Shown: positions 8,950 to 19,577 of the stretch, one piece after another
How the letters are laid out: each line of letters starts with the position of its first letter
Position numbering within the stretch: position 1 is the stretch's first letter
Source: an uncultured Gammaproteobacteria bacterium
Lineage (GTDB): Bacteria; Patescibacteriota; Patescibacteriia; UBA9934; GWF2-40-263
Assembly: GCA_964538435.1 (NCBI GenBank)
Contig: CAZIDX010000001.1
Location: 64,393 to 128,392, forward strand
Direction of reading: 5' to 3'
Length of the DNA: 64,000 nucleotides
Notes under the pieces: model-generated
What the model was told of the DNA's origin: nothing
Databases searched by the model: none
What the model saw: only the letters and a program-made list of their open reading frames with translations
Program-made: the position numbers and the translations under genes

Positions 8950-11900
8950 CTAGATTGCGTGCTCTGCTATGTATTCTTTCAGAGCATTTGCCATCTTCTC
9001 GTATCCTTCACCTGTCATGTTATCGATGAAGTTGTCGTGTGTGCCAGACTTAAGATCTATTCCTGGGTCAATGATTGGATACGCCGCACGGAATTCACTA
9101 AACGGCATCAGATCCTCGCCATTACTGAATGCGGTTTCCACAAAACTCTGTGCGGCAGTAAGAAAATCTCCACCATTTGAGAGAATCCAGTTCTCTACAC
9201 CAATCCCTCCAAGACCGCCCTGGCCATAGTCACCCTTTTTGTAGCAACCAGCTTCAGTAAGTGTCATTTTTGCAAACACAACATTTGTTACCGTCCTCTC
9301 AAAAGCTTCTTCCCCATACTTCTCGCGAATGACATTGAGTCGATCTTGCACACCAAAATGAGATGAGTATTCTTCGTGCTCAGACTTTTGAACGAATGCA
9401 ATATCGATCCCCACAGGAATATCCAAACCTGGAACCGAAATGTCTCCAAAACGGAGTTGAATATCATGGGATCCGTTATCTGTTCCACCCAGAGCCTCCA
9501 GTTTTACGATAAACGCATCAAGAAGCTCGTCTCTGCGAGCGTAATCTGCAGGATCAAGTCGGATTGCAAAGTCAAAGTCATAGTCCTTAGGTCGGTTTGT
9601 AAAGCGAGTGGATGACCCAGTCTCATGCAACTCCGCACCCGCTATAGTGGCTTCGTGATCCACCCTCCATTCAATTCCAAGGGATGTGAACGTATCTGCC
9701 ACAAGTGCACGCACAGTCTCACAAGCAACCCTTGTTGCTTCCTTGTCTTCTTGCTTTGCTCTAAGCAATTCCTCAACAGCGTTGTTGTGAAATTCATCTG
9801 CCTCTGCTCGTGCAAGATCAAATTCAGGCCCATTCAGACTCTCAATACCTGCAAGAAACTTCTCACGCATCTGGTCATATTGCTCAGGTGTAAACAAGAG
9901 CTCTCCATCAAGGTTTATGATCGGCATGTACCAACCATTCGTAGCAACATCAATTTGTAGACTCTGAAGATGGCTTTGATCAAATTCATCACCAAGCACC
10001 ACGGCATCAAACTCAGAAGAGGGGAGACCTACAGTCACACCCGTATGCCTTTCAGTTCCTTTTGTTGGCACCATTGAACCGTCGCGCCTAAGAGAGGTAA
10101 GTTGATCTGAAACCAGGAGCTCATATTTTCCTTCTCGTTTGCGAGCCTCTCTTCCAAACAAAGGCATCTGCTCACCATCATCACTTGTGCGGATAAACTG
10201 ACCTCTGTCCCTGCTGTAGAAGTACACAGGTCCATAGCCCTGAACCCACTCTTCTGCTTCACGAAGATCAGATCGAACTTCAACAAAGTCAGTATTAAAC
10301 GGGGTCATATCATTCTCGCTAGATGCTCCAAGAAACTCCATTGAAACAGAACCTCCTCTCAACACATTTCTGAAGAACTGCTCGTTAACCCCTTTAAACT
10401 GGTCTCCGCTCTGAGGCGTAAATTCACCTGAGCGAATTTCTTCTGCTAAAGCCCTACCACGCTCGTTAGCACCTGCCTTCACCTGATCCATCCGATCAAG
10501 AACTTGATCGACCGATTCATACCCAACAGGCTTTGCAAACATTTCCTCGTACCTATCAACCAAACTCTGCCCCTCTTTAACCTGCATGCTCTCCAAAAGT
10601 TGCTTGAAGGTTGTGGCAAGGCCTTCCTCATTCATTGTAAATGGTTCTTCGTCAATTTTTCCAAGCATGGACACCTCATGAGCTGTAGACATCTTTTCGC
10701 AGAAACGAGAAAACCTCTTCTGTTCCTCTTCATTCATGCCCTCAAGTCCGACTTGTTCAAATTTTTGAATAACATCCCGAGCATCTCGTATACTTTCAAG
10801 ATAGGTTCTTAGAGAGTCGTTGTTTGATTCAATATTTACACGTGTGAGCTCTCGATAAGCAACCATTCTCATGCCCCTGGTGCTCACATCTTCAAGTGAA
10901 ACAACGGGGCCATCATCAAGACGTCTATCTAGAGTGCTCTGATCACGAAGATAGATTATTTCAAAGACTTTCAGGTGTTTTCCAAACTCAGGAAGATTGT
11001 TGCGAACAAAAATTGCTTCAATCTCTTCAACAGTCTCAAGGGGTTTTTCTGTTCTGTGAATAGCTGCTATGACAGAGTCTTTTACCTTTTGAAGTGAAGC
11101 CGAAGGTGATTGTTCAATTCGTGCATAAGCTTCAAAAAGATCAGGTCGAACACCCTCAGCCTCAAAGTGCTCACGATGAAACATGATCTGCTGGAATCGG
11201 CCTTTCTCTAGCGCGGAATCTATAAGCGCGTTGTAATCAATCTTCACCCCAGCTTGATCAAAGAGCCCTCCATATCCAAGAAGCACCTCTGTCCCAGCCT
11301 TCTGAGTAAGGGAATCAGCAAGCGCCTGCACTCCAACTTGATCTATGAAATCAGCATGATACTTCAAAAGTTGAGTGAATGCATACACACCATCACTTGT
11401 TGTTGGGTCTACATGCACCTTCACCGTCTCAACGATCTGCTGAACATCATCTTTAGATAATTCAAAGTTTGGACCTTGAAAAGCATTCTTCTCCACAAGA
11501 ATCCCAATCAGTTCTGTGTGAGTATCGATCCTTCCTATCAGAAGATCTTTAATTTGATTGCGCAATTCCGGATCAAGCAGCTCAAGAAAATCTGGATCAA
11601 TTATTCGTTGAACCTCTTTCACATTTCCATACTCAGCAGCTGTAAGTGCATAACGCTGTCTTGTTTCCGGATTCAGATCAACAGCATCAAAAGTGTGCAT
11701 TTCATACACAAGTGTGACTTCATCTTGTTCAAGAAGTCTCTGCGCAAACTCATCAGCTCTTTCCCCGGAGAAGGTGGCCAAGTAAAACGGCTCTCTGGTT
11801 AACATCCATGCTCTGCTGTCCCTGAACTTATCTCGGTCAAGCCACTCAGCTCCCTCAACATCTGCATGGTCTTTCAGTTTCAATACAATATCTGCAGTGT

Positions 11901-13170
11901 CACCTGCTGATAATTCTCGAAATTGGATCATTTTTTGAACGTTTTCAAGAAGAGGAGGACCAACTTCTGGAATTGCAAGAGCTTCTGGTTTTGATTCACA
12001 AAAGGCAATAGCGAAAGCCTTGATATGTTCTTTTGTCCTCAGTGCTGATGTCTTGAGAACAAGAGGGTTTCCATGTGAAAGAGCGATCTGCACTTCATCT
12101 TCAAGAGTGATGCTTGCCGGTCGCACGGATGATTCGTAGATATAAAGAGAGTTGATTGGAGCATCCTCCTCGGCAACAGCAGCAAGTTCATTCAAAGCGT
12201 TTATTCTTGTTTCTCTATCAAAGTCAGCATTCGTTCCAAGCATAAGAATCAACCCGGGAAGACCATGCTCAAATGCAGATGTTGCGAGCATTTCTTTTTG
12301 CTGCGCACTCATCTTTACATCACGGCCACGGTCGTCATAGACAGCTTCTCTCAATTCGTCTGGGCTCAATGCCATAAGCTTCTCAAGCATGCTCTGCCTT
12401 GCCTCATCAGAAGCATGTTCAAATACAACAGGATTGAGAAAATCGCCCTTCTCACCAATCCATTCTCCCTTTTCATTGTCAAAACAAAGCGCAGCTTTCA
12501 ATTCGCTTTGAAGAGCGGTCCTTCCTACGAACACATGATCAAGACGAAGTTTCGATGCGCAAAATTCACGCATGCCCGATGCAAGAGGATCGCCTTGATC
12601 CATGTCAACCACACGTTTGAAAAATCGTTCCTGCTGATCTGATGTGAGCGCAAGACCGTCAAAGTGATGTCTTACTTGGGGAAGATTGTGGTCCACCAAA
12701 GTATCAATAAGCTTATCGTGAGTCTCAGGCGTTAAAGCGTTTCCATCAATCAAGCTTAAAAACTCGCCTGCACTGCTTGGATCCTTGGCAATGGCATCAA
12801 CAAACATCTTGACTTGCTTGTAGTCAGGCTTCTCTCCAGACACAGACAATCTGTGTGCAATCTTCTTTGGATCACCAAGCCCGATTGTTTCCAGCATCTG
12901 GTCCATTGCTTCTTCGGCTCTCTGCGCAAGACTAGCGAGCTTCTCTCGCAGTGTCTCGTCAGGTTCCTCTCCAAGGTTTTCTGCTATCTCAGATGTCATC
13001 TGTTCTCCGCTTGCAACAAAATCTTCCACATGGCCTTCAGCCTGCTCTGCAAGTTCACCAGGGACTGGCTCATACCGATCATCCAGCTCCTCATTAGACA
13101 ATGGTTCAGACTCAGCACCTGCTTTCTGGTTGTCGCGTTTGTCCTCTCTATTCATTGTCATATTCCTCAT
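8950..13170 (-). CDS. giant 1406 aa protein with a C-terminal Pol-beta-superfamily nucleotidyltransferase-like motif
   Basis: Long uninterrupted ORF with an acidic N-terminus and no signal peptide. Near the C-terminus, GSSTRFTNRPKDYDFDFAI fits hG[GS]x9-13DhDh, and GIDIAFV about 55 aa downstream fits the third acidic strand. Confidence 0.7.
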   Translation of the reverse strand: MRNMTMNREDKRDNQKAGAESEPLSNEELDDRYEPVPGELAEQAEGHVEDFVASGEQMTSEIAENLGEEPDETLREKLASLAQRAEEAMDQMLETIGLGDPKKIAHRLSVSGEKPDYKQVKMFVDAIAKDPSSAGEFLSLIDGNALTPETHDKLIDTLVDHNLPQVRHHFDGLALTSDQQERFFKRVVDMDQGDPLASGMREFCASKLRLDHVFVGRTALQSELKAALCFDNEKGEWIGEKGDFLNPVVFEHASDEARQSMLEKLMALSPDELREAVYDDRGRDVKMSAQQKEMLATSAFEHGLPGLILMLGTNADFDRETRINALNELAAVAEEDAPINSLYIYESSVRPASITLEDEVQIALSHGNPLVLKTSALRTKEHIKAFAIAFCESKPEALAIPEVGPPLLENVQKMIQFRELSAGDTADIVLKLKDHADVEGAEWLDRDKFRDSRAWMLTREPFYLATFSGERADEFAQRLLEQDEVTLVYEMHTFDAVDLNPETRQRYALTAAEYGNVKEVQRIIDPDFLELLDPELRNQIKDLLIGRIDTHTELIGILVEKNAFQGPNFELSKDDVQQIVETVKVHVDPTTSDGVYAFTQLLKYHADFIDQVGVQALADSLTQKAGTEVLLGYGGLFDQAGVKIDYNALIDSALEKGRFQQIMFHREHFEAEGVRPDLFEAYARIEQSPSASLQKVKDSVIAAIHRTEKPLETVEEIEAIFVRNNLPEFGKHLKVFEIIYLRDQSTLDRRLDDGPVVSLEDVSTRGMRMVAYRELTRVNIESNNDSLRTYLESIRDARDVIQKFEQVGLEGMNEEEQKRFSRFCEKMSTAHEVSMLGKIDEEPFTMNEEGLATTFKQLLESMQVKEGQSLVDRYEEMFAKPVGYESVDQVLDRMDQVKAGANERGRALAEEIRSGEFTPQSGDQFKGVNEQFFRNVLRGGSVSMEFLGASSENDMTPFNTDFVEVRSDLREAEEWVQGYGPVYFYSRDRGQFIRTSDDGEQMPLFGREARKREGKYELLVSDQLTSLRRDGSMVPTKGTERHTGVTVGLPSSEFDAVVLGDEFDQSHLQSLQIDVATNGWYMPIINLDGELLFTPEQYDQMREKFLAGIESLNGPEFDLARAEADEFHNNAVEELLRAKQEDKEATRVACETVRALVADTFTSLGIEWRVDHEATIAGAELHETGSSTRFTNRPKDYDFDFAIRLDPADYARRDELLDAFIVKLEALGGTDNGSHDIQLRFGDISVPGLDIPVGIDIAFVQKSEHEEYSSHFGVQDRLNVIREKYGEEAFERTVTNVVFAKMTLTEAGCYKKGDYGQGGLGGIGVENWILSNGGDFLTAAQSFVETAFSNGEDLMPFSEFRAAYPIIDPGIDLKSGTHDNFIDNMTGEGYEKMANALKEYIAEHAI

Positions 13171-13385: not shown

Positions 13386-14699
13386 CTAGTTGGGGAGACG
13401 AATCTGGGCGACCAGACCGTCTGAGACAAGCTCGAGATCCATTGGACCCTTCCTTAGAAGCGCCAGGAGCCGGGCGTGTTGTTCGTCGCGAAGTCCGATG
13501 AGGACACAGTTATGGATCAGTTCCTGCTCGGCCTTAATGTTGTCGATCCTGCGCTGGATGGCACTGTGTGAGCTGTTACGCGTGATCGCGTTACACGTGA
13601 TCTGGCCCACTGCACCAAGACGGTAAAGAGTCAGCATCTGCATCGGGCCCCAATCCAAGTGAGGTTGCTCTTCCCATACAAAGATCGAAGTACCGTTCAG
13701 GAACGCTTCGTCAACATCCAGGTCGATCTCATCATCAACTGACGACTGCATCCACGTGCTCATGAGCCACTGGTTCTCAGTAGACGAGAGAATGCGTGCC
13801 TGACCCTTGTGTACAAAAGCACCGCTGATGGCTGCACTTGTTGCAATGAGGGTTGCATTCGATGACTCTGGCATTTCCTCGCGCATCTGCATGCGCCCAG
13901 GAGTTGGTCGGATCTGCACCAAGTGCCAATCATCAGGCTGATCAGGGTGAATCACGAGTTCGAGCTGAACACCGAACTTGGATCCGATCCCATTCTCAAT
14001 CACACGAGGAAGTTCTTGCGCAAGATCGGACCAGGGCAGGGTAACAGGATTCTCAACCAGCACCTCACCTCGTTGGAGCTCGACAAGAGTATTCCCATCT
14101 GTGTCCAGTACGGTAGTAGGCCCCTCATGATCCATGGTTGCACTTGTAAACTTTCGGATACCGCTCGGGCAAAATTCTCGTCCGCAGGAAATACGGACGA
14201 CAACCTGCTCGAGGATATCGCTCCATGCGATATCAACCACCACCCCAACACCCGTCACATGCTGTTGCAGTACGATGGGGATGCGGGCATGGATCGATTC
14301 GATGAGCTGGCCGCGCAGATTCGGAATCTTAACCTTGTGGGAAGGGTGAACGCCGCTGTCAGCCGAGAGCCAGTCTTCGTCATGTGCACTGCTGCGCACA
14401 ATGAGAACTTCGTTTTGGTCCTGCGCCCACGGGATACCAGCAATGAACTGGCCCATGTCCTGATGCATGACTTCAGAAAGTTGGATCCAACGCCACTTGG
14501 GCACCGAGATCTTGTCAGAGAGTCGCGCAATTCGCTTGCACAGCTCCAGTCCAAATGCTTTGCCCCCACCTGTCATCAGCGTAGTGACAAGCTGTAGATG
14601 ATCATCTGGATCCAGATGCTCAAATGCAGGATCCATCACAACAGCGCCTGCGCGCCGGTGGCCGTAAACCCAGCCACATGGGTCGAACTTCTTGTTCAT
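13386..14699 (-). CDS. PEP-utilising enzyme N-terminal (PPDK_N, ATP-grasp-like) domain protein; GC-rich
   Basis: TGGGKAFGLEL (GGKxxNL-like) and LIVRSSAHDEDWLSADSG (VRSSAxxED..SxAG) match the PPDK_N family. No His/PEP domain follows. Confidence 0.55.
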   Translation of the reverse strand: MNKKFDPCGWVYGHRRAGAVVMDPAFEHLDPDDHLQLVTTLMTGGGKAFGLELCKRIARLSDKISVPKWRWIQLSEVMHQDMGQFIAGIPWAQDQNEVLIVRSSAHDEDWLSADSGVHPSHKVKIPNLRGQLIESIHARIPIVLQQHVTGVGVVVDIAWSDILEQVVVRISCGREFCPSGIRKFTSATMDHEGPTTVLDTDGNTLVELQRGEVLVENPVTLPWSDLAQELPRVIENGIGSKFGVQLELVIHPDQPDDWHLVQIRPTPGRMQMREEMPESSNATLIATSAAISGAFVHKGQARILSSTENQWLMSTWMQSSVDDEIDLDVDEAFLNGTSIFVWEEQPHLDWGPMQMLTLYRLGAVGQITCNAITRNSSHSAIQRRIDNIKAEQELIHNCVLIGLRDEQHARLLALLRKGPMDLELVSDGLVAQIRLPN

Positions 14700-14830: not shown

Positions 14831-16885
14831 ATGCAAACTTGGAAAGTGAAGAAAAAGAACGAAAAAAAGCCAAAGAAGACAACAGGCGTGAAAATCGCCG
14901 CAATTTTACTTCTTTTGTCTACATTCGTTTTCGCGGGATATGACTTCCCGGGTGTATGGAATGGAGCAGCTCACTCTGTTGAGTCAGCAACAGGTTGGCT
15001 TCCACCAACACTAGAGGAGGAGGATTTCCGGCTCGGTCTTGATCTGCAAGGTGGAACACATCTCATCTATGAAGCAGACATGGCAGAGATCCCGGAAGAC
15101 GATCGTCTTGAAGCCCTTGAGGGAGTAAAGGATGTTATTGAGCGTCGTGTGAACGCGTTTGGTGTGTCTGAGCCTGTTGTGCAAACAACAACCACAGGTG
15201 GCACCTATCGTGTCATCATCGAACTCGCTGGAGTTCTTGATGTAAACGAGGCTATCTCACTTATTGGTGAGACCCCAGTACTTGAGTTCAAAGAGCCGGG
15301 TCAAGAGCTTGAACGTGATCCAACAGAAGAAGAATTAGCTCAAGTGGAAACAGCAAACGAAACCGAACGTGCAGATGCACAAGCTGTGCTTAGTCGCGCG
15401 CTGGCATACGAAGATTTTGATGCACTCGTGAGCGAGTTTAGTATCGAAGTTGACAAAGAGGAGCGAAAAGGTGTGATTGAAGGAATCACAGGAGACTCCC
15501 ACTTCTCTGATTTTCTGATTCTCGCAGAAGAGAACTACATGTGGGACGGACAGGTTCACAGTAGTCTGCATGAGACTGAAGATGGTATTAACATTTTCAA
15601 GCTGGTTGAAACAACCGAGCAGGCTCAAATGGAGCTTTCTCACATTTTGGTTTGTTACGAAGGGGCAATAGGATGTGAAACCGGACTTCCACAAATCGAA
15701 GCTCACACACAGATGAGTAGTCTCAAAGATGAGCTTACGGTTGAGAACTTTGCTGAAAAAGCCATGGAGTATTCAACCGGTCCTTCAGGGCCGATTGGAG
15801 GATCTCTTGGCTGGGCATCAGCTGACATGTTCGTAACACCATTTGCTGTTGCAGCAACCGCGCTCGAAGTTGGTGGGATCTCAGACGTGATTGAGACAGA
15901 ATTTGGTTACCACATCATCTACAAAACATCAGAGCGATCTACGCCGGCATACACAATTCAGCGAATCGTAATGCCGCTTACAGATATCTATGACGTGATC
16001 CCAGAAGTTTCACCATGGGAGAACACCGAGCTTTCTGGAAAGTACCTTGAGCGTGCTGGTGTGGAATTTGATATGAACACAGGAATGCCATACGTGGCAC
16101 TCAACTTTAACAGCGAAGGTGGAGACTTGTTTGGGGAGCTGACAGAAGCGCATGTTGGAGAGCCAATTGCGATCTTCCTCGATGGACAACCAATCTCAAC
16201 ACCAACAGTTCAGCAGGCAATCTACGGAGGAAAGGCGATTATCACTGGAGATTTCACAGTAGACGAGGCAAAGCTCTTGGCTCAGCGTCTAAACGCAGGT
16301 GCGCTTCCAGTTCCTGTAAACCTGCTCTCACAACAGACAATTGGACCAACACTGGGTGCCATCTCACTTGAAAAGAGCATCAATGCAGCGCTATTTGGCT
16401 TCCTGCTCGTGGCAATCTACATGGTTGCCATGTACCGACTTCCAGGCCTAGTTGCTGTTGCTGCGCTCCTCATGTTCGCATTCCTCAACATGGCTGCGTA
16501 CCGACTCTTTGATGTGACAATCACACTGGCTGGAATCGCTGGACTTGTTCTTTCACTCGGAATTGCTGTTGATGCAAACGTGCTCATTATCGAGCGTCTC
16601 AAAGAAGAGTTTGCCTCAGGTCGAGATTTTGTCTCATCACTTGACGAAGCTTTTGCTCGCGCCTGGACAGCTATTCGAGACGGAAACATCACAACACTCA
16701 TTGCTGCTGGAGTTCTATACTGGTTTAGCTCAAGCTTTATCCGAGGGTTCGCACTCACGCTATCAATTGGTGTGATCCTCTCAATGTTCACAGCAATTAC
16801 GGTTACACGCGTATACCTCAAATCCCTCTTGGATTGGAAGGCAATTCGCAAACCAGCCTTATTCGGGTTAAAGAAACGAGACTAA
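14831..16885 (+). CDS. secD: protein translocase subunit SecD with a PrsA/PpiC-type parvulin domain inserted in its periplasmic head
   Basis: SecD motifs LGLDLQGGTHLIYEAD and the C-terminal part of P1 are present. Residues about 266-366 read SHILVCYEG...GGSLGWASADMFVTPFAVAATALEVGGISDVIETEFGYHIIYK, a parvulin signature. Confidence 0.88.
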   Translation: MQTWKVKKKNEKKPKKTTGVKIAAILLLLSTFVFAGYDFPGVWNGAAHSVESATGWLPPTLEEEDFRLGLDLQGGTHLIYEADMAEIPEDDRLEALEGVKDVIERRVNAFGVSEPVVQTTTTGGTYRVIIELAGVLDVNEAISLIGETPVLEFKEPGQELERDPTEEELAQVETANETERADAQAVLSRALAYEDFDALVSEFSIEVDKEERKGVIEGITGDSHFSDFLILAEENYMWDGQVHSSLHETEDGINIFKLVETTEQAQMELSHILVCYEGAIGCETGLPQIEAHTQMSSLKDELTVENFAEKAMEYSTGPSGPIGGSLGWASADMFVTPFAVAATALEVGGISDVIETEFGYHIIYKTSERSTPAYTIQRIVMPLTDIYDVIPEVSPWENTELSGKYLERAGVEFDMNTGMPYVALNFNSEGGDLFGELTEAHVGEPIAIFLDGQPISTPTVQQAIYGGKAIITGDFTVDEAKLLAQRLNAGALPVPVNLLSQQTIGPTLGAISLEKSINAALFGFLLVAIYMVAMYRLPGLVAVAALLMFAFLNMAAYRLFDVTITLAGIAGLVLSLGIAVDANVLIIERLKEEFASGRDFVSSLDEAFARAWTAIRDGNITTLIAAGVLYWFSSSFIRGFALTLSIGVILSMFTAITVTRVYLKSLLDWKAIRKPALFGLKKRD

Positions 16886-16886
16886 T

Positions 16887-17777
16887 ATGCGTATGAACAT
16901 CGTAGAAAACCGCAAAAAGTGGTTCGTTCTATCAGGCGTCTTCGTTGCTGGAAGCATCATTGTTGTCACGCTGCTAGGACTCAGATTCGGAATCGACTTT
17001 ACTGGCGGAAGCTTGCTCGAGGTTGAATTTGAAGCCGCACCAGTTGTTGATGAGGTTCGAAGCACGCTAGCATCAGCGGGGTATACAGACGTAGCCGTGC
17101 AGACAACGGGAGAGCATGGTGTCATTATTCGAACAGACAGTCTTTCAGAAGACGAGCATCAAACAATCCTCACATCGCTTTCAGAGGCGCATGGAGAAGT
17201 TGAGGAGATGCGTTTTGACTCCATTGGGCCAGTGATCGGTGACGAGCTTCGCAGAACTGCGCTCATGGGGGTGGCACTCACACTGCTTCTCATCGGACTC
17301 TATGTCGCATGGGCATTCCGCAAGGTTACTGAACCTGTTGCTTCGTGGAAGTATGGAGCCCTCACAATCATGACAGCATTCCATGACGTAATCATCACGG
17401 TTGGTGCGTTCTCTCTCCTTGGTTACTTCTTTGGGTGGGAGATTGGGACAGCCTTCGTGGCGGCAACGCTAACCATTCTAGGTTACTCAATCAACGACAC
17501 AGTTGTAGTTTTTGACAGGACGCGAGAAAACCTCCTTCGCCGTGCCGCAGATACATTCGAAGACACCGTTGAAATGAGCATCAAGGAAACACTCATGCGC
17601 TCACTCAACACATCTGTCACCACATTACTTGCGCTAGCTGCGATCTTCCTTTTCGGAGGTGATAGCACGCAACCCTTCGCACTCGCGCTCATAATTGGAA
17701 TCGCGATCGGTACCTACTCGTCACTATTTCTGGCAAGTCCAGCTCTGGTCGAGTGGGAGCTCGCAGGCAAAAAATAA
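16887..17777 (+). CDS. secF: protein translocase subunit SecF
   Basis: 296 aa polytopic membrane protein directly after secD, with a typical SecF core. Confidence 0.88.
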   Translation: MRMNIVENRKKWFVLSGVFVAGSIIVVTLLGLRFGIDFTGGSLLEVEFEAAPVVDEVRSTLASAGYTDVAVQTTGEHGVIIRTDSLSEDEHQTILTSLSEAHGEVEEMRFDSIGPVIGDELRRTALMGVALTLLLIGLYVAWAFRKVTEPVASWKYGALTIMTAFHDVIITVGAFSLLGYFFGWEIGTAFVAATLTILGYSINDTVVVFDRTRENLLRRAADTFEDTVEMSIKETLMRSLNTSVTTLLALAAIFLFGGDSTQPFALALIIGIAIGTYSSLFLASPALVEWELAGKK

Positions 17778-17837: not shown

Positions 17838-19577
17838 ATGCCTATGATTCCATTGTTGGGTATTCCGATTGTATCGGATGCAACAGGAACAGCTGCCGCA
17901 GCAACATCATACTTCGCACAACCTATCGATGCGATTCTTTTTGATATCCTGATCTGGTTTGGTTGGATCCCGATTGCAGTCACGCTTGTCTGGGGCTTCA
18001 CGCTGGTTTGGCTTGGTTACAGACAGGCTGGGCATGTGGCCAGGCTTAAGTACATGGTGCTTGCTATCGATGTTCCTGCAATGACAGAGCAGTCACCAAA
18101 GGCACTTGAGAACCTTTTTGCATCTCTGTACGCATGTAAGTCTTCGATCACATTCAAAGAAAAATGGCTCTACGGAAAATTAAATCCAAATTTTTCATTT
18201 GAGATTGTTTCCACAGAAGGCTATATCCAATTTCTAATCAGGTTCCAAACACGATTCCGAGATGTTATTGAAGCTGGTATCTACGCACACTATCCTGATG
18301 CAGAGATCACAGAAGTTGAGGACTACACTGAACAATTTCCAAAAACCTTTCCAAACGAAACACATGAAATGTGGGGAGGGGAAATTACGTTTGACAAACC
18401 GTCCATGTACCCACTTCGGACCTATGTTGATTTTGAAGATCGGTTGTCTGCAGAACTAAAAGACCCCTTGGCCTACATGCTCGAGCAAATGGCAAAAATG
18501 AAAGCAGGGGAGCATTTTTGGATTCAGATTATTGTCCAACCTTCAACAAATAGCTGGAAGGATGCAGGTGTGAATCACGTTAAGGCTATTTACGGGGATG
18601 TCCCAAAGCCAAAAAAGAGCAAGATTGCTGCTGGAGCCGAATCGCTCATGTCTTGGCCAAACGAGCTTCTTAAAGAAGGTATAGATGTAGATTTAAGCGG
18701 ACTGCTGTTTGGTGATGCAGCAAACGGAGAAGAAGACCCTTGGAAAGTTTTCAAGCTGACATTGCCCCAAATCGAGGAGGCAAAAGCCATTTTACAAAAA
18801 TCAACAAAGGTTGGGCACGGAGTAAAAATCCGCATTCTTTACGTTGCAAAGCACAACTCCTATGTAAAGATTGAGCGCACAGCAATGGTAAAGGGGATCA
18901 TGAACCAGTACGCACACCTCAACTTCAATCGTTTTGGTCTGCATATTGCTTCAGTTCCAAAAGATGATTATTTCTGGATGAAATGGAGCTATACAAAACG
19001 CCAAAACACACTCATGAAGGCATATTGCTCACGCTCATGGGGAATTGGCGCACACAACATGTGGATGAACGTTGAGGAATTGGCAACGCTTTGGCATTTC
19101 CCTGCGGTCCACATTAAAGCACCGCTCGTTAAGAAGGCAGAGGCCAAGCGTGCCGAGCCTCCGGTTGGTCTTCCCATCACAGATCTAGAAGACACACTTC
19201 CTGGATACAAACCCACCACAGCAGACGAGGGGTTGGATCTGCCTGGGGCTGGGCAAGATCAGCAAGAATATTCAGCCGGCATTGCCACAGCTGATTCAGT
19301 GATGGGTGAGCCGCCTGTGGATCTCCCAGGAGCGAGTCTAGAGGATGGTCCGTTGCCAGAAACACTTCCTTCAACAATCGCACCAACAAGCACAGAGCAA
19401 CCAGAACCTGAAACAACAATCGATATCCCAGAGCCACCTGAACCAGAACCTGAAAAAGACCCTCTTGCATTTGAAGAAAGCGTACTCCCTGAGGTAAAGG
19501 CTCCGACCGACAAAGAAAGCCAAGAAGAACTCAAGGACGATGATGAAACATTTGTCCCACCAAACCTTCCAGTATGA
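17838..19577 (+). CDS. membrane-anchored protein with an acidic, Pro-rich C-terminus; partner of the downstream T4CP-like ATPase
   Basis: One or two N-terminal TM helices, then a roughly 480 aa soluble region. The C-terminal region is Pro-, Glu- and Asp-rich. Its stop overlaps the next ATG. Confidence 0.55.
   Translation: MPMIPLLGIPIVSDATGTAAAATSYFAQPIDAILFDILIWFGWIPIAVTLVWGFTLVWLGYRQAGHVARLKYMVLAIDVPAMTEQSPKALENLFASLYACKSSITFKEKWLYGKLNPNFSFEIVSTEGYIQFLIRFQTRFRDVIEAGIYAHYPDAEITEVEDYTEQFPKTFPNETHEMWGGEITFDKPSMYPLRTYVDFEDRLSAELKDPLAYMLEQMAKMKAGEHFWIQIIVQPSTNSWKDAGVNHVKAIYGDVPKPKKSKIAAGAESLMSWPNELLKEGIDVDLSGLLFGDAANGEEDPWKVFKLTLPQIEEAKAILQKSTKVGHGVKIRILYVAKHNSYVKIERTAMVKGIMNQYAHLNFNRFGLHIASVPKDDYFWMKWSYTKRQNTLMKAYCSRSWGIGAHNMWMNVEELATLWHFPAVHIKAPLVKKAEAKRAEPPVGLPITDLEDTLPGYKPTTADEGLDLPGAGQDQQEYSAGIATADSVMGEPPVDLPGASLEDGPLPETLPSTIAPTSTEQPEPETTIDIPEPPEPEPEKDPLAFEESVLPEVKAPTDKESQEELKDDDETFVPPNLPV

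What the first reader, a model, noticed from the sequence alone, without database searches (positions are those of the whole stretch)
15293..15946. SecD carries a PrsA/PpiD-like parvulin PPIase module inserted in its periplasmic P1 head
Between the conserved P1 base (LGLDLQGGTHLIYEAD...ELAGVLDV) and the conserved P1 C-terminal segment (GEPIAIFLDGQPISTPTVQ...GALPVPV), SecD has about 215 extra residues. Their end carries a textbook parvulin signature: SHILVCYEG...GGSLGWASADMFVTPFAVAATALEVGGISDVIETEFGYHIIYK. A helical segment precedes it, as in the PrsA/SurA N-domain.

A foldase physically fused to the translocon motor would be a Rosetta-stone link between SecDF and the PpiD/PrsA-type chaperones. 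To my knowledge this is not a standard SecD architecture.
Basis: partly seen in the sequence, partly recalled or inferred. Interest (0 to 1): 0.6.

Follow-up and report, generated by a model that had tools for sequence, protein, structure and literature searches.

The report
SecD with built-in parvulin foldase modules
In this candidate-phyla-radiation (Patescibacteria) bacterium, the protein-export motor SecD carries two parvulin-type folding-helper domains spliced into its outward-facing domain, one nested inside the other; this links export and folding in one protein and appears to be undescribed in the literature I could search.

Summary
SecD (window 14831-16885, 684 aa) has Pfam Rotamase hits (E about 1e-18) between SecD_1st and SecDF_P1_head. 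About 240 residues sit in a turn that is only 4-8 residues long in minimal SecDs.

The interpretation needs correcting. The segment before the recognised parvulin is not a PrsA/SurA-type helical N-domain. It is a second, degenerate parvulin-like domain (D1, aa 156-262) that lacks an N-terminal beta1. Single-module relatives show a circularly permuted parvulin: the His-bearing beta1 strand follows beta4, and un-permuting in silico restores full Pfam coverage while a reversed-strand control does not. In the window protein a canonical parvulin (D2, aa 263-372) is nested in D1's beta4-beta1' hairpin.

The architecture is conserved, with 1-3 modules, in at least 72 distinct 50%-identity clusters, in split SecD and fused SecDF. 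Named carriers are Uhrbacteria, Magasanikbacteria, Falkowbacteria, Parcubacteria and Peribacteria. A Cys pair co-occurs perfectly (135 both, 38 neither, 0 single).

The window's D2 keeps three of four tetrad residues; the Asp position is Gly. The most likely function is a translocon-tethered holdase/foldase. This is a covalent counterpart of the reported PpiD-SecD, SurA-SecDF and Mycoplasma dome contacts. No paper describing it was found.

The parts
14831..16885 (+). secD gene, 684 aa, uninterrupted ORF. The start is supported by the conserved N-terminus MQTWK (M1, Q2, W4 invariant or nearly so).
   Evidence: (TIGR01129 359.6 bits, cut-off 244.4)
14882..14944 (+). TM1 helix (aa 18-38). It places everything up to about aa 500 outside the cytoplasm.
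   Evidence: AF2 secondary structure; SecD topology from established knowledge of the 3aqp structure
15008..15295 (+). P1 base, N-terminal part (Sec_GG motif and SecD_1st, aa 60-155). It ends with the strand VLEFKE.
   Evidence: (aligns to Tt SecDF 23-117)
15296..15616 (+). D1 (aa 156-262): a degenerate parvulin-like domain running alpha1 to beta4. It has no N-terminal beta1 and neither catalytic His ('DGINIFKL' where canonical parvulins have 'FGYHIIK').
   Evidence: hhalign against D2 80.7%, E=1.3e-5; isolated PF00639 score 20.8 bits, E=8e-4, profile 11-95; the D1 profile hits only parvulins in the PDB; the homologous segment is called Rotamase by Pfam in P0123 and in single-module SecDs; pLDDT 85-94
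15617..15946 (+). D2 (aa 263-372): a canonical-order parvulin domain (beta1 'ELSHILVCY' to beta4 'FGYHIIYK'). Tetrad positions are H271 (15641-15643), G317 in place of Asp/Cys (15779-15781), T356 (15896-15898) and H361 (15911-15913). The likely disulfide pair is C275 (15653-15655) and C282 (15674-15676).
   Evidence: (TM 0.8-0.9 to the SurA P2, PrsA and Pin1 PPIase domains)
15947..16015 (+). Tail strand 'AYTIQRIVMP' (aa 373-381) and linker (to aa 395). It is the homologue of the 'EVKASHILFK' beta1 strand of single-module SecDs, and is inferred to complete the D1 sheet.
   Evidence: alignment; the AF2 strands 252-274 and 359-381 are the same length and have matching index sums; the natural deletion in P0070/P0085 joins aa 262 to about aa 372
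16016..16312 (+). Remainder of the P1 head (aa 396-494), starting with 'WENTELSGKY'.
   Evidence: PF22599 at 398-494; aligns to Tt 160 onward
16322..16840 (+). SecD membrane domain (aa 498-670). D581 in 'GIAVDANV' aligns with Tt SecDF D340.
   Evidence: D581 invariant; alignment; the proton-path role of D340 is from established knowledge
16887..17777 (+). secF gene, 296 aa, of ordinary architecture.
   Evidence: TIGR00966 280.7 bits, cut-off 160

Best explanation
SecD of this Patescibacteria (Uhrbacteria-like) organism carries a rigid two-domain parvulin module in the short turn that joins the P1 base to the P1 head.

The outer domain, D1, is a circularly permuted parvulin-like domain that has lost its catalytic residues. 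The inner domain, D2, is a canonical parvulin nested in D1's last hairpin, stabilised by a Cys275-Cys282 disulfide.

SecDF sits beside the SecYEG exit, and its P1 head captures and pulls the emerging chain. The module is therefore held permanently at the point where unfolded secretory proteins appear. There it most likely binds them as a holdase or chaperone. In most family members it probably also catalyses prolyl isomerisation.

On this reading it does in cis what PrsA, PpiD or SurA do in trans in other bacteria. In the window protein the Asp/Cys tetrad position is Gly, so binding probably dominates over catalysis.

Shown here: the architecture, its position in SecD, its conservation, and the residue patterns. 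Inferred: strand pairing and nesting, the disulfide, substrate contact, and any activity.
For: - Domain calls and insertion point.
- D1 is a parvulin homologue.
- Circular permutation in single-module relatives: the order alpha1...'FGYHIIK'-linker-'EVKASHILFK'. Moving that strand to the front extends PF00639 coverage from profile 8-10 to 1, and PF13616 from 28-29 to 14-15. It adds 2.6-6.4 bits (PF00639) and 3.2-8.7 bits (PF13616) in 3 of 4 proteins. A reversed-strand control gives no extension and no gain.
- Nesting: the two 23-residue AF2 strands 252-274 and 359-381, and a natural variant (P0070/P0085) that has lost exactly aa 263-372.
- Selection on D2: H271 166/173, T/S356 172/173, H361 172/173, F338 168/173, position 317 D/E 124/173.
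- Cys275/Cys282: both present in 135, neither in 38, one alone in 0.
- SecD remains a motor: D581 is invariant and aligns to Tt D340, and secF is intact.
- Breadth: at least 72 of the 150 best 50%-identity cluster representatives carry 1-3 modules at the same site. 25 GTDB species representatives carry it, including fused SecDF forms.
- Most inserts (59 of the 72 with a parvulin-HMM hit) have exactly one G[YFW]H motif and one xH[ILV] motif.
- Independent precedent for the partnership: PpiD contacts the SecD periplasmic domain (PMC9643414). SurA binds the holotranslocon, and AlphaFold places its two parvulin domains on the SecDF P1 head (PMC9987972). PrsA-like PPIC lipoproteins form a dome on SecYEG-SecDF in M. 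pneumoniae.
Against: - No activity or binding data exist for any member.
- The window protein has Gly at the Asp/Cys tetrad position, as do 32 of 173 relatives, so catalysis may be weak or absent here.
- The whole-protein model has pTM 0.43.
- Two close relatives have lost D2, and many Patescibacteria SecDs have no insert, so the module is dispensable in some lineages.
- I could not check whether these genomes lack a free-standing PrsA/PpiD-type protein. Only the 64-kb window was scanned, and it has none.
Confidence: 0.6

Rival explanations
1. The parvulin-like modules are mainly structural. They would act as a rigid spacer or docking platform that enlarges or repositions the P1 head, or binds a partner such as SecYEG, YidC, the cell wall, an S-layer or a host surface. 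They would not handle secretory substrates.
For: - D1 has lost all catalytic residues.
- The window's D2 lacks the Asp.
- The same site holds other inserts with no parvulin signal (P0148, P0260, P0231, P0172), so it tolerates assorted additions.
- Module number varies from 0 to 3 and appears to change readily.
Against: - D2 keeps both His, the Thr/Ser and the hydrophobic pocket Phe in at least 96% of 173 sequences, and D/E at position 317 in 72%. That is hard to explain for a mere spacer.
- Single-module forms keep the full tetrad despite the permutation.
Confidence: 0.2
2. The module acts in cis on SecD itself. For example, it could isomerise or clamp a proline-containing hinge segment to gate the swinging of the P1 head.
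For: The insert sits exactly at the base-head junction. The linker after the tail strand contains conserved Pro residues ('MPLT...IPEVSPW').
Against: There is no precedent. The flanking turn is only 4-8 residues, with no conserved Pro, in SecDs without an insert. This reading also does not explain the tandem or nested build.
Confidence: 0.1
3. One reading: a complete PrsA/PpiD/SurA-like unit, meaning a helical N-terminal chaperone domain plus a parvulin, was inserted.
For: - A long helix (aa 166-191) precedes the recognised parvulin.
- The best Foldseek hit for the insert is full-length SurA.
Against: - No SurA_N or trigger-factor-type family hits the insert.
- The segment's profile hits only the parvulin domains of SurA, PrsA and PpiD, from alpha1 to beta4.
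- hhalign matches D1 to D2.
- Pfam calls the homologous segment Rotamase in relatives.
Confidence: 0.03
4. Assembly chimera, a frameshift-fused ORF, or a decaying gene.
For: None found.
Against: - The identical protein occurs on two contigs from separate assemblies.
- More than 100 homologues of the same length and domain order exist.
- The ORF is uninterrupted.
- The motor residues are conserved.
Confidence: 0.01

Closest known systems
SurA (E. coli periplasmic chaperone; PDB 1m5y)
   Same: It has two parvulin domains in one chain, the first without PPIase activity (established knowledge). It is the best sequence and fold match to the insert. It is reported to bind the holotranslocon, and AlphaFold models place its parvulin domains on the SecDF P1 head (PMC9987972).
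   Different: SurA is soluble, and its chaperone core is an N/C-terminal helical domain, which is absent here. Its parvulin domains are both in canonical order, not permuted or nested. Its clients are outer-membrane proteins, which Patescibacteria are not thought to have (my own knowledge; not tested here).
PpiD-YfgM (E. coli inner-membrane chaperone at SecYEG)
   Same: It is a membrane-tethered parvulin-containing protein positioned over the Sec exit. [quoted passage not shown] Its parvulin domain lacks PPIase activity (established knowledge), as may the window's Gly317 D2.
   Different: It is a separate polypeptide with its own TM anchor and extra non-parvulin domains. Its association is non-covalent and dynamic.
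PrsA (Gram-positive lipoprotein foldase; PDB 4wo7, 1zk6)
   Same: It is an extracytoplasmic, membrane-anchored parvulin foldase of single-membrane bacteria. D2 aligns to its PPIase domain, with 'EYSTDSS...GGDLGW' matching 'EYSTGPS...GGSLGW'.
   Different: PrsA is a lipoprotein dimer with an NC chaperone domain. The window protein has no such domain, no lipobox module, and Gly where PrsA has the Asp.
M. pneumoniae 'dome' complex (Mdp436/444/489 on SecYEG-SecDF)
   Same: In a genome-reduced bacterium, PrsA-like PPIC-domain proteins are near-obligately assembled on the Sec translocon, including SecDF. Only one PPIC domain retains catalytic residues. Here, likewise, typically one module per SecD retains them.
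   Different: That complex is a non-covalent assembly of separate large lipoproteins forming a chamber. Here the parvulin domains are spliced into SecD itself.
Canonical SecDF (T. thermophilus 3aqp/5yhf; D. radiodurans 5xan)
   Same: All SecD hallmarks are present: GG motif, P1 base and head, six-TM RND-like domain, the TM4 Asp, and a partner SecF.
   Different: About 240 extra residues forming two parvulin-like domains sit at the base-head junction. None of the solved SecD/SecDF chains carries a parvulin.

Membership tests
SecD (TIGR01129 / Pfam SecD_1st + SecDF_P1_head + SecD_SecF_C) | Score above the curated family thresholds, with all SecD regions present in order | tested here: met
   TIGR01129 359.6 bits against 244.4; PF21760, PF22599, PF02355 and PF07549 are all above cut-off
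SecD (TIGR01129 / Pfam SecD_1st + SecDF_P1_head + SecD_SecF_C) | Conserved TM4 Asp of the proton path (Tt D340) and an adjacent secF | tested here: met
   D581 aligns to Tt D340 and is invariant in 58 sequences. secF lies one base downstream, with TIGR00966 at 280.7 bits.
SecD (TIGR01129 / Pfam SecD_1st + SecDF_P1_head + SecD_SecF_C) | PMF-driven enhancement of protein export | not testable with these tools
   Needs genetics or biochemistry
Parvulin PPIase domain (PF00639 / PF13616): D2, aa 263-372 | Parvulin sequence profile and beta-alpha3-beta-alpha-beta2 fold | tested here: met
   PF13616 66.7 bits and PF00639 63.9 bits. Foldseek TMt 0.8-0.9 to the SurA P2, PrsA and Pin1 PPIase domains. 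AF2 pLDDT is about 90.
Parvulin PPIase domain (PF00639 / PF13616): D2, aa 263-372 | Complete catalytic tetrad His - Asp/Cys - Thr/Ser - His (numbering and roles from knowledge of Pin1, Par14 and PrsA) | tested here: not met
   The window has H271, G317, T356 and H361, so the Asp/Cys position is Gly. In the family, D/E occupies position 317 in 124 of 173 sequences and G in 32 of 173, so most relatives do meet it.
Parvulin PPIase domain (PF00639 / PF13616): D2, aa 263-372 | Measurable prolyl isomerase activity | not testable with these tools
   Needs a protease-coupled or refolding assay
Parvulin-like domain: D1, aa 156-262 plus tail 373-381 | Homology to parvulins | tested here: met
   The D1 profile against the PDB gives SurA 3.8e-16, PrsA 1e-10 and PpiD 1.5e-9, and only parvulins. 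hhalign E=1.3e-5. The window sequence alone is just below the Pfam cut-off (20.8 against 21.7 bits).
Parvulin-like domain: D1, aa 156-262 plus tail 373-381 | Canonical strand order (beta1 first) and catalytic residues | tested here: not met
   The domain starts at alpha1, and the beta1-equivalent follows beta4. Both His are absent from the window's D1.
PrsA / SurA / PpiD-type chaperones | Helical trigger-factor/SurA-type substrate-binding (N or NC) domain flanking the parvulin | tested here: not met
   No SurA_N-type Pfam hit at E<=0.01. The flanking segment is itself parvulin-like.
PrsA / SurA / PpiD-type chaperones | Own localisation device (lipobox, signal peptide or N-terminal TM anchor) | tested here: not met
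   The module is internal to SecD, between TM1 and TM2.

The most novel reading that the evidence does not exclude
The most novel reading has three parts.

1. Patescibacteria have merged the extracytoplasmic foldase with the PMF-driven export motor. The SecD P1 domain would then hand the emerging chain directly to a built-in parvulin, replacing free PrsA/PpiD/SurA-type factors. This would be the first natural covalent fusion of a translocon component and a folding catalyst.

2. The fusion uses a circularly permuted parvulin fold, which I found no description of.

3. A second, canonical parvulin is nested inside the permuted one, giving three levels of domain-in-domain insertion joined by a continuous two-stranded beta ribbon.
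Probability: 0.45. Interest if true: 0.72.

Novelty: new variant of a known kind. Interest (0 to 1): 0.6.

Why it matters
How SecDF cooperates with periplasmic or extracellular chaperones is an open question. It currently rests on crosslinks, low-resolution EM and AlphaFold models for PpiD-SecD, SurA-SecDF and the Mycoplasma dome.

A conserved natural fusion of parvulin domains into the SecD P1 junction is independent evolutionary evidence that this partnership is functional. It also points to where on SecD the chaperone acts.

It offers a simpler experimental system: one polypeptide with fixed stoichiometry, plus natural variants with 0, 1, 2 or 3 modules, with and without the catalytic Asp.

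The permuted and nested parvulin topology is of separate interest for protein-fold evolution and for engineering domain insertions.

For the biology of Patescibacteria, it suggests how organisms with very small genomes economise on envelope proteostasis.

Tried and rejected
1. PrsA/SurA N-domain reading of aa 156-262: rejected.

2. Origin of D2 by duplication of the SecD-resident permuted module: inconclusive. A profile of the single-module cores scores D2 (median 65 bits) no better than free-standing parvulins (median 76 bits). That free-standing set was itself selected for similarity to D2, which biases the comparison.

3. Single versus multiple origins: a neighbour-joining tree of the SecD core interleaves the 0-, 1-, 2- and 3-module states. 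It places the D2-less P0070/P0085 beside the window protein. The tree has long branches and no support values, so I use it only as a hint that module number changes readily.

4. Foldseek against AFDB50, to obtain UniProt entries and organisms: the library was not available.

5. Cluster names for distant representatives: almost none carry names.

6. Other parvulins in the window: none found in six-frame ORFs. This says nothing about the rest of the genome.

7. Neighbouring ORFs: no Pfam hits in my scan. The precomputed table lists DUF8128, TrwB/TraG-like, BacA and HD genes downstream. I see no obvious functional link to the finding.

8. Literature: six searches combining SecD/SecDF with parvulin, PPIase, PpiC, rotamase, fusion, Patescibacteria or CPR, and parvulin with circular permutation, found no description of the fusion or of a permuted parvulin. 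The library lacks most subscription journals, so absence is not proof.

9. Co-variation of G317 with position 325 (GGSLGW against GGDLGW): no clean coupling.
Full report
**Observation**

The window holds an uninterrupted 684-aa ORF at 14831..16885 (+), followed one base later by a 296-aa ORF at 16887..17777. They are SecD and SecF: TIGR01129 scores 359.6 bits against a cut-off of 244.4, and TIGR00966 scores 280.7 against 160.

Pfam places SecD_1st at aa 98-155, Rotamase_3 at 254-364 (E=3.4e-18), Rotamase at 283-366 (E=2.7e-17), SecDF_P1_head at 398-494 and SecD_SecF_C at 498-659. The finding's coordinates correspond to aa 155-372, and all the quoted peptides are present.

Against T. thermophilus SecDF (3aqp), aa 56-155 align to Tt 23-117 and aa 401-676 to Tt 160-435. 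About 245 residues therefore stand where Tt has about 42.

The same protein is found on two contigs, including an independent Logan assembly. 118 of the 120 closest homologues (58-81% identity, about 660-700 aa) have the same Pfam content.

**Exact insertion point**

Minimal SecDs of related organisms read '...GETPFLEFK', then a 4-8 residue turn, then 'x(W/F)xxTxL(S/T)GxxL...'. In the window protein the insert (aa 156-395) lies in that turn. It sits between the last strand of the P1 base N-part ('VLEFKE', aa 150-155) and the first head strand ('WENTELSGKY', aa 396-405).

The SecD motor looks intact. D581 in 'GIAVDANV' aligns with Tt D340 and is invariant in 58 family members. The role of D340 in the proton path is established knowledge, not tested here.

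**What precedes the recognised parvulin**

The evidence says otherwise:

- No SurA_N-type family hits the segment.
- A profile of this segment aligns to the D2 profile by hhalign (80.7%, E=1.3e-5), matching 'EDFDALVSEFS...G' to 'ENFAEKAMEYS...GGSLGW' and 'ETEDGINIF' to 'ETEFGYHII'.
- In a relative that is 45% identical to the window protein over the P1 region (P0123), Pfam calls two Rotamase stretches, the first at 165-266.
- The isolated window segment scores 20.8 bits (E=8e-4) on PF00639 over profile positions 11-95, just under the 21.7-bit cut-off.
- A profile of the segment from the window and ten two-module relatives hits only parvulins in the PDB. These include SurA at 3.8e-16 (both its parvulin domains, residues 173-252 and 281-354), the PrsA PPIase domain 1zk6 at 1e-10 (residues 15-92 of 93), the PpiD parvulin 2kgj at 1.5e-9, and Pin1.
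- AF2 models are confident here, with pLDDT 85-94 in the whole-protein model and a mean of 88.5 for the insert alone. They give the same order of elements in both halves.
- The best Foldseek hit for the insert is SurA over 217-248 columns. Single parvulin domains superpose at TMt 0.8-0.9.

The segment is therefore a second, degenerate parvulin-like domain (D1). It starts at alpha1 and has no N-terminal beta1 and neither catalytic His.

**Circular permutation and nesting**

Relatives of about 560-620 aa carry a single module at the same site. Their order is:

1. the SecD 'LEFKE' strand
2. alpha1
3. 'SEDPGSKxKGGDLG'
4. 'TQFGYHIIKK' (beta4, second His)
5. a variable linker of about 8-60 residues
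6. 'EVKASHILFK'
7. the P1 head

The sixth element is the canonical His-bearing parvulin beta1, placed after beta4.

I tested this by moving that strand to the front in silico:

| Protein | PF00639 start, native → un-permuted | PF00639 bits, native → un-permuted | PF13616 start, native → un-permuted | PF13616 bits, native → un-permuted |
|---|---|---|---|---|
| P0134 | 10 → 1 | 87.1 → 93.4 | 29 → 15 | 100.8 → 108.8 |
| P0153 | 10 → 1 | 71.6 → 74.2 | 28 → 14 | 91.2 → 94.4 |
| P0176 | 8 → 1 | 85.3 → 91.7 | 28 → 14 | 98.4 → 107.1 |
| P0159 | 4 → 4 | 78.1 → 79.3 | 17 → 15 | 89.1 → 92.0 |

The effect is weak in P0159.

Prepending the reversed strand as a control left the PF00639 start at profile 8-10 and the scores at 87.1, 71.2 and 85.6 bits.

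In the window protein the homologous tail strand is 'AYTIQRIVMP' (aa 373-381). AF2 predicts two unbroken 23-residue strands, 252-274 and 359-381. Their index sums match (252+381 = 274+359), as expected for one antiparallel ribbon running through both domains.

Two close relatives, P0070 and P0085, have lost exactly aa 263-372, leaving '...VFKYLNSSQTEDGTPAYTIQRILMP...'.

Taken together, D2 (a canonical-order parvulin) is nested in the beta4-beta1' hairpin of the permuted D1. The strand pairing itself is an inference, because I had no access to model coordinates.

**Residue conservation**

Over 173 canonical-order modules from the close family and from distant representatives:

| Position | Conservation |
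|---|---|
| H271 | 166/173 |
| F338 | 168/173 |
| T/S356 | 172/173 |
| H361 | 172/173 |
| 317 | D 108, E 16, G 32, alignment gap 14, other 3 |

Position 317 aligns with the Asp of PrsA's 'EYSTDSS'.

The window protein is in the Gly minority, so it has three of the four tetrad residues. From established work on Pin1, Par14 and PrsA, loss of this residue strongly lowers catalysis. The in vivo roles of PrsA, SurA and PpiD depend little or not at all on PPIase activity. That is my own knowledge and was not tested here.

C275 and C282 occur together in 135 sequences, are both absent in 38, and never occur singly. This argues for a disulfide and fits the extracytoplasmic location.

**Distribution**

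A search of 1.84 billion cluster representatives with the P1 region found 218 proteins at E<=1e-30. Among the best 150:

| Class | Count |
|---|---|
| Two modules | 40 |
| One module | 20 |
| Larger insert, about 350-400 aa, apparently three modules (e.g. P0150) | 12 |
| Other insert at the same site, no parvulin signal | 6 |
| No insert | 55 |
| Incomplete P1 | 17 |

Pfam confirmed Rotamase domains in examples of each parvulin-bearing class, and in fused SecDF proteins of 1015-1061 aa.

Most inserts (59 of the 72 with a parvulin-HMM hit) carry exactly one G[YFW]H motif and one xH[ILV] motif.

In GTDB species representatives, 25 of the 80 retained loci have the parvulin inside SecD. Their record titles name Candidatus Uhrbacteria, Magasanikbacteria, Falkowbacteria, Parcubacteria, Peribacteria and the 'Patescibacteria group'. 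Several TPA bins are labelled 'uncultured Gammaproteobacteria', and one is labelled 'Candidatus Binatia'. I regard those labels as unverified.

The closest named relatives of the window protein are Uhrbacteria SecDs.

**Mechanism**

What is shown is the architecture. A rigid pair of parvulin-like domains is permanently attached at the base-head junction of the SecD P1 domain, outside the membrane, in a protein that keeps its motor residues and its SecF partner.

What I infer is the function. SecDF lies next to the SecYEG exit, and its P1 head binds and pulls the emerging chain (established model from the T. thermophilus work). The module would therefore meet unfolded secretory proteins first. 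It would hold them, and in members with a full tetrad it would catalyse prolyl isomerisation.

Independent literature supports this partnership in trans:

- SurA binds the holotranslocon, and all AlphaFold models put its two parvulin domains on the SecDF P1 head (PMC9987972).
- In M. pneumoniae, PrsA-like PPIC lipoproteins form a dome on SecYEG-SecDF, with only one catalytically equipped PPIC domain (bioRxiv 10.1101/2025.04.25.650208 and 10.1101/2024.09.05.611430).

The fusion is thus a Rosetta-stone-type confirmation of these contacts.

I give this reading a probability of 0.6. The main rival, at 0.2, is a chiefly structural or docking role. That is suggested by the degenerate D1, by Gly317 here, by the other inserts at this site and by the apparent ease with which modules are gained and lost. 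The strong conservation of the D2 pocket argues against it.

**Comparison with what is known**

The protein is a member of the SecD family. Its D2 is a member of the parvulin fold family, but in this genome it fails the full-tetrad criterion. It is not a PrsA/SurA/PpiD-type chaperone, because the helical substrate-binding domain that defines those proteins is absent. The best description is that it works like a PpiD or PrsA tethered at the translocon, without belonging to those families.

**Novelty**

Public databases already hold hundreds of these proteins, annotated simply as 'protein translocase subunit SecD', and their Pfam content is precomputed. The sequences themselves are therefore not new.

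I found no paper that describes a SecD-parvulin fusion or a circularly permuted parvulin. The searchable library omits most subscription journals, so this absence is not proof.

I rate the finding as a new variant of known kinds (SecD; parvulin), with interest 0.6.

**Limits**

- There are no functional data for any member.
- I had no model coordinates or PAE.
- The whole-protein pTM is 0.43, so the orientation of the module is unknown.
- No whole-genome check for free-standing parvulin chaperones was possible.
- The origin of D2 is unresolved.
- The tree is only indicative.

Noticed in passing
P0070 and P0085 (relatives; the deletion corresponds to window 15617-15946): Two SecDs that are 77-79% identical to the window protein have lost exactly the inner parvulin (aa 263-372) and kept D1 and the tail strand. 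They are natural 'D2-less' variants. In a rough tree they sit next to the window protein.
   Followed up: partly
P0150, P0152, P0157, P0167, P0181, P0182, P0226 (relatives of about 775-830 aa): SecDs with about 350-400 residues at the same insertion site. Pfam sees a Rotamase_2 stretch plus a full Rotamase in P0150, so there appear to be three parvulin-like modules.
   Followed up: partly
P0148, P0260, P0268, P0231, P0172, P0151 (relatives): SecDs with 74-246 extra residues at the same base-head turn but no significant parvulin or other Pfam hit in the insert. The site seems to be a hotspot for insertions of unknown nature.
   Followed up: partly
L001, L006, L010, L012, L018, L019, L021, L023, L032 (titled 'uncultured Gammaproteobacteria bacterium') and L007 ('Candidatus Binatia'): These genome bins carry the Patescibacteria-type two-module SecD. 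L001 is the closest GTDB representative to the window, at 46% identity over the insert. The taxonomic labels of these TPA bins look unreliable.
   Followed up: no
window 8950-13170 (-), 13386-14699 (-): Two large ORFs (1406 aa and 437 aa) lie upstream of secD on the opposite strand and have no Pfam hit at E<=0.001.
   Followed up: partly
window 17838-19577 (+) and downstream (L081 9014-13715): The ORF after secF (579 aa) has a Pro/Glu-rich C-terminal tail. It had no Pfam hit in my scan but is listed as DUF8128 in the precomputed table. It is followed by a TrwB/TraG-like coupling-protein ATPase gene and by bacA. This pairing could be part of a secretion or DNA-transfer apparatus.
   Followed up: no
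L040 3503-4549 (MAG titled 'Nanoarchaeota archaeon'): A 349-aa ORF with a parvulin domain that also matches the D1 profile, in a bin labelled as a DPANN archaeon. It has no SecD context.
   Followed up: no
L015 3437-6526 (Magasanikbacteria), L068 3260-6319 (Peribacteria); P0154, P0156, P0180, P0193, P0201, P0215, P0234, P0247: Single-chain SecDF fusions of 1015-1100 aa also carry the parvulin insert. The insert therefore occurs in both split and fused SecD/SecF gene arrangements.
   Followed up: partly
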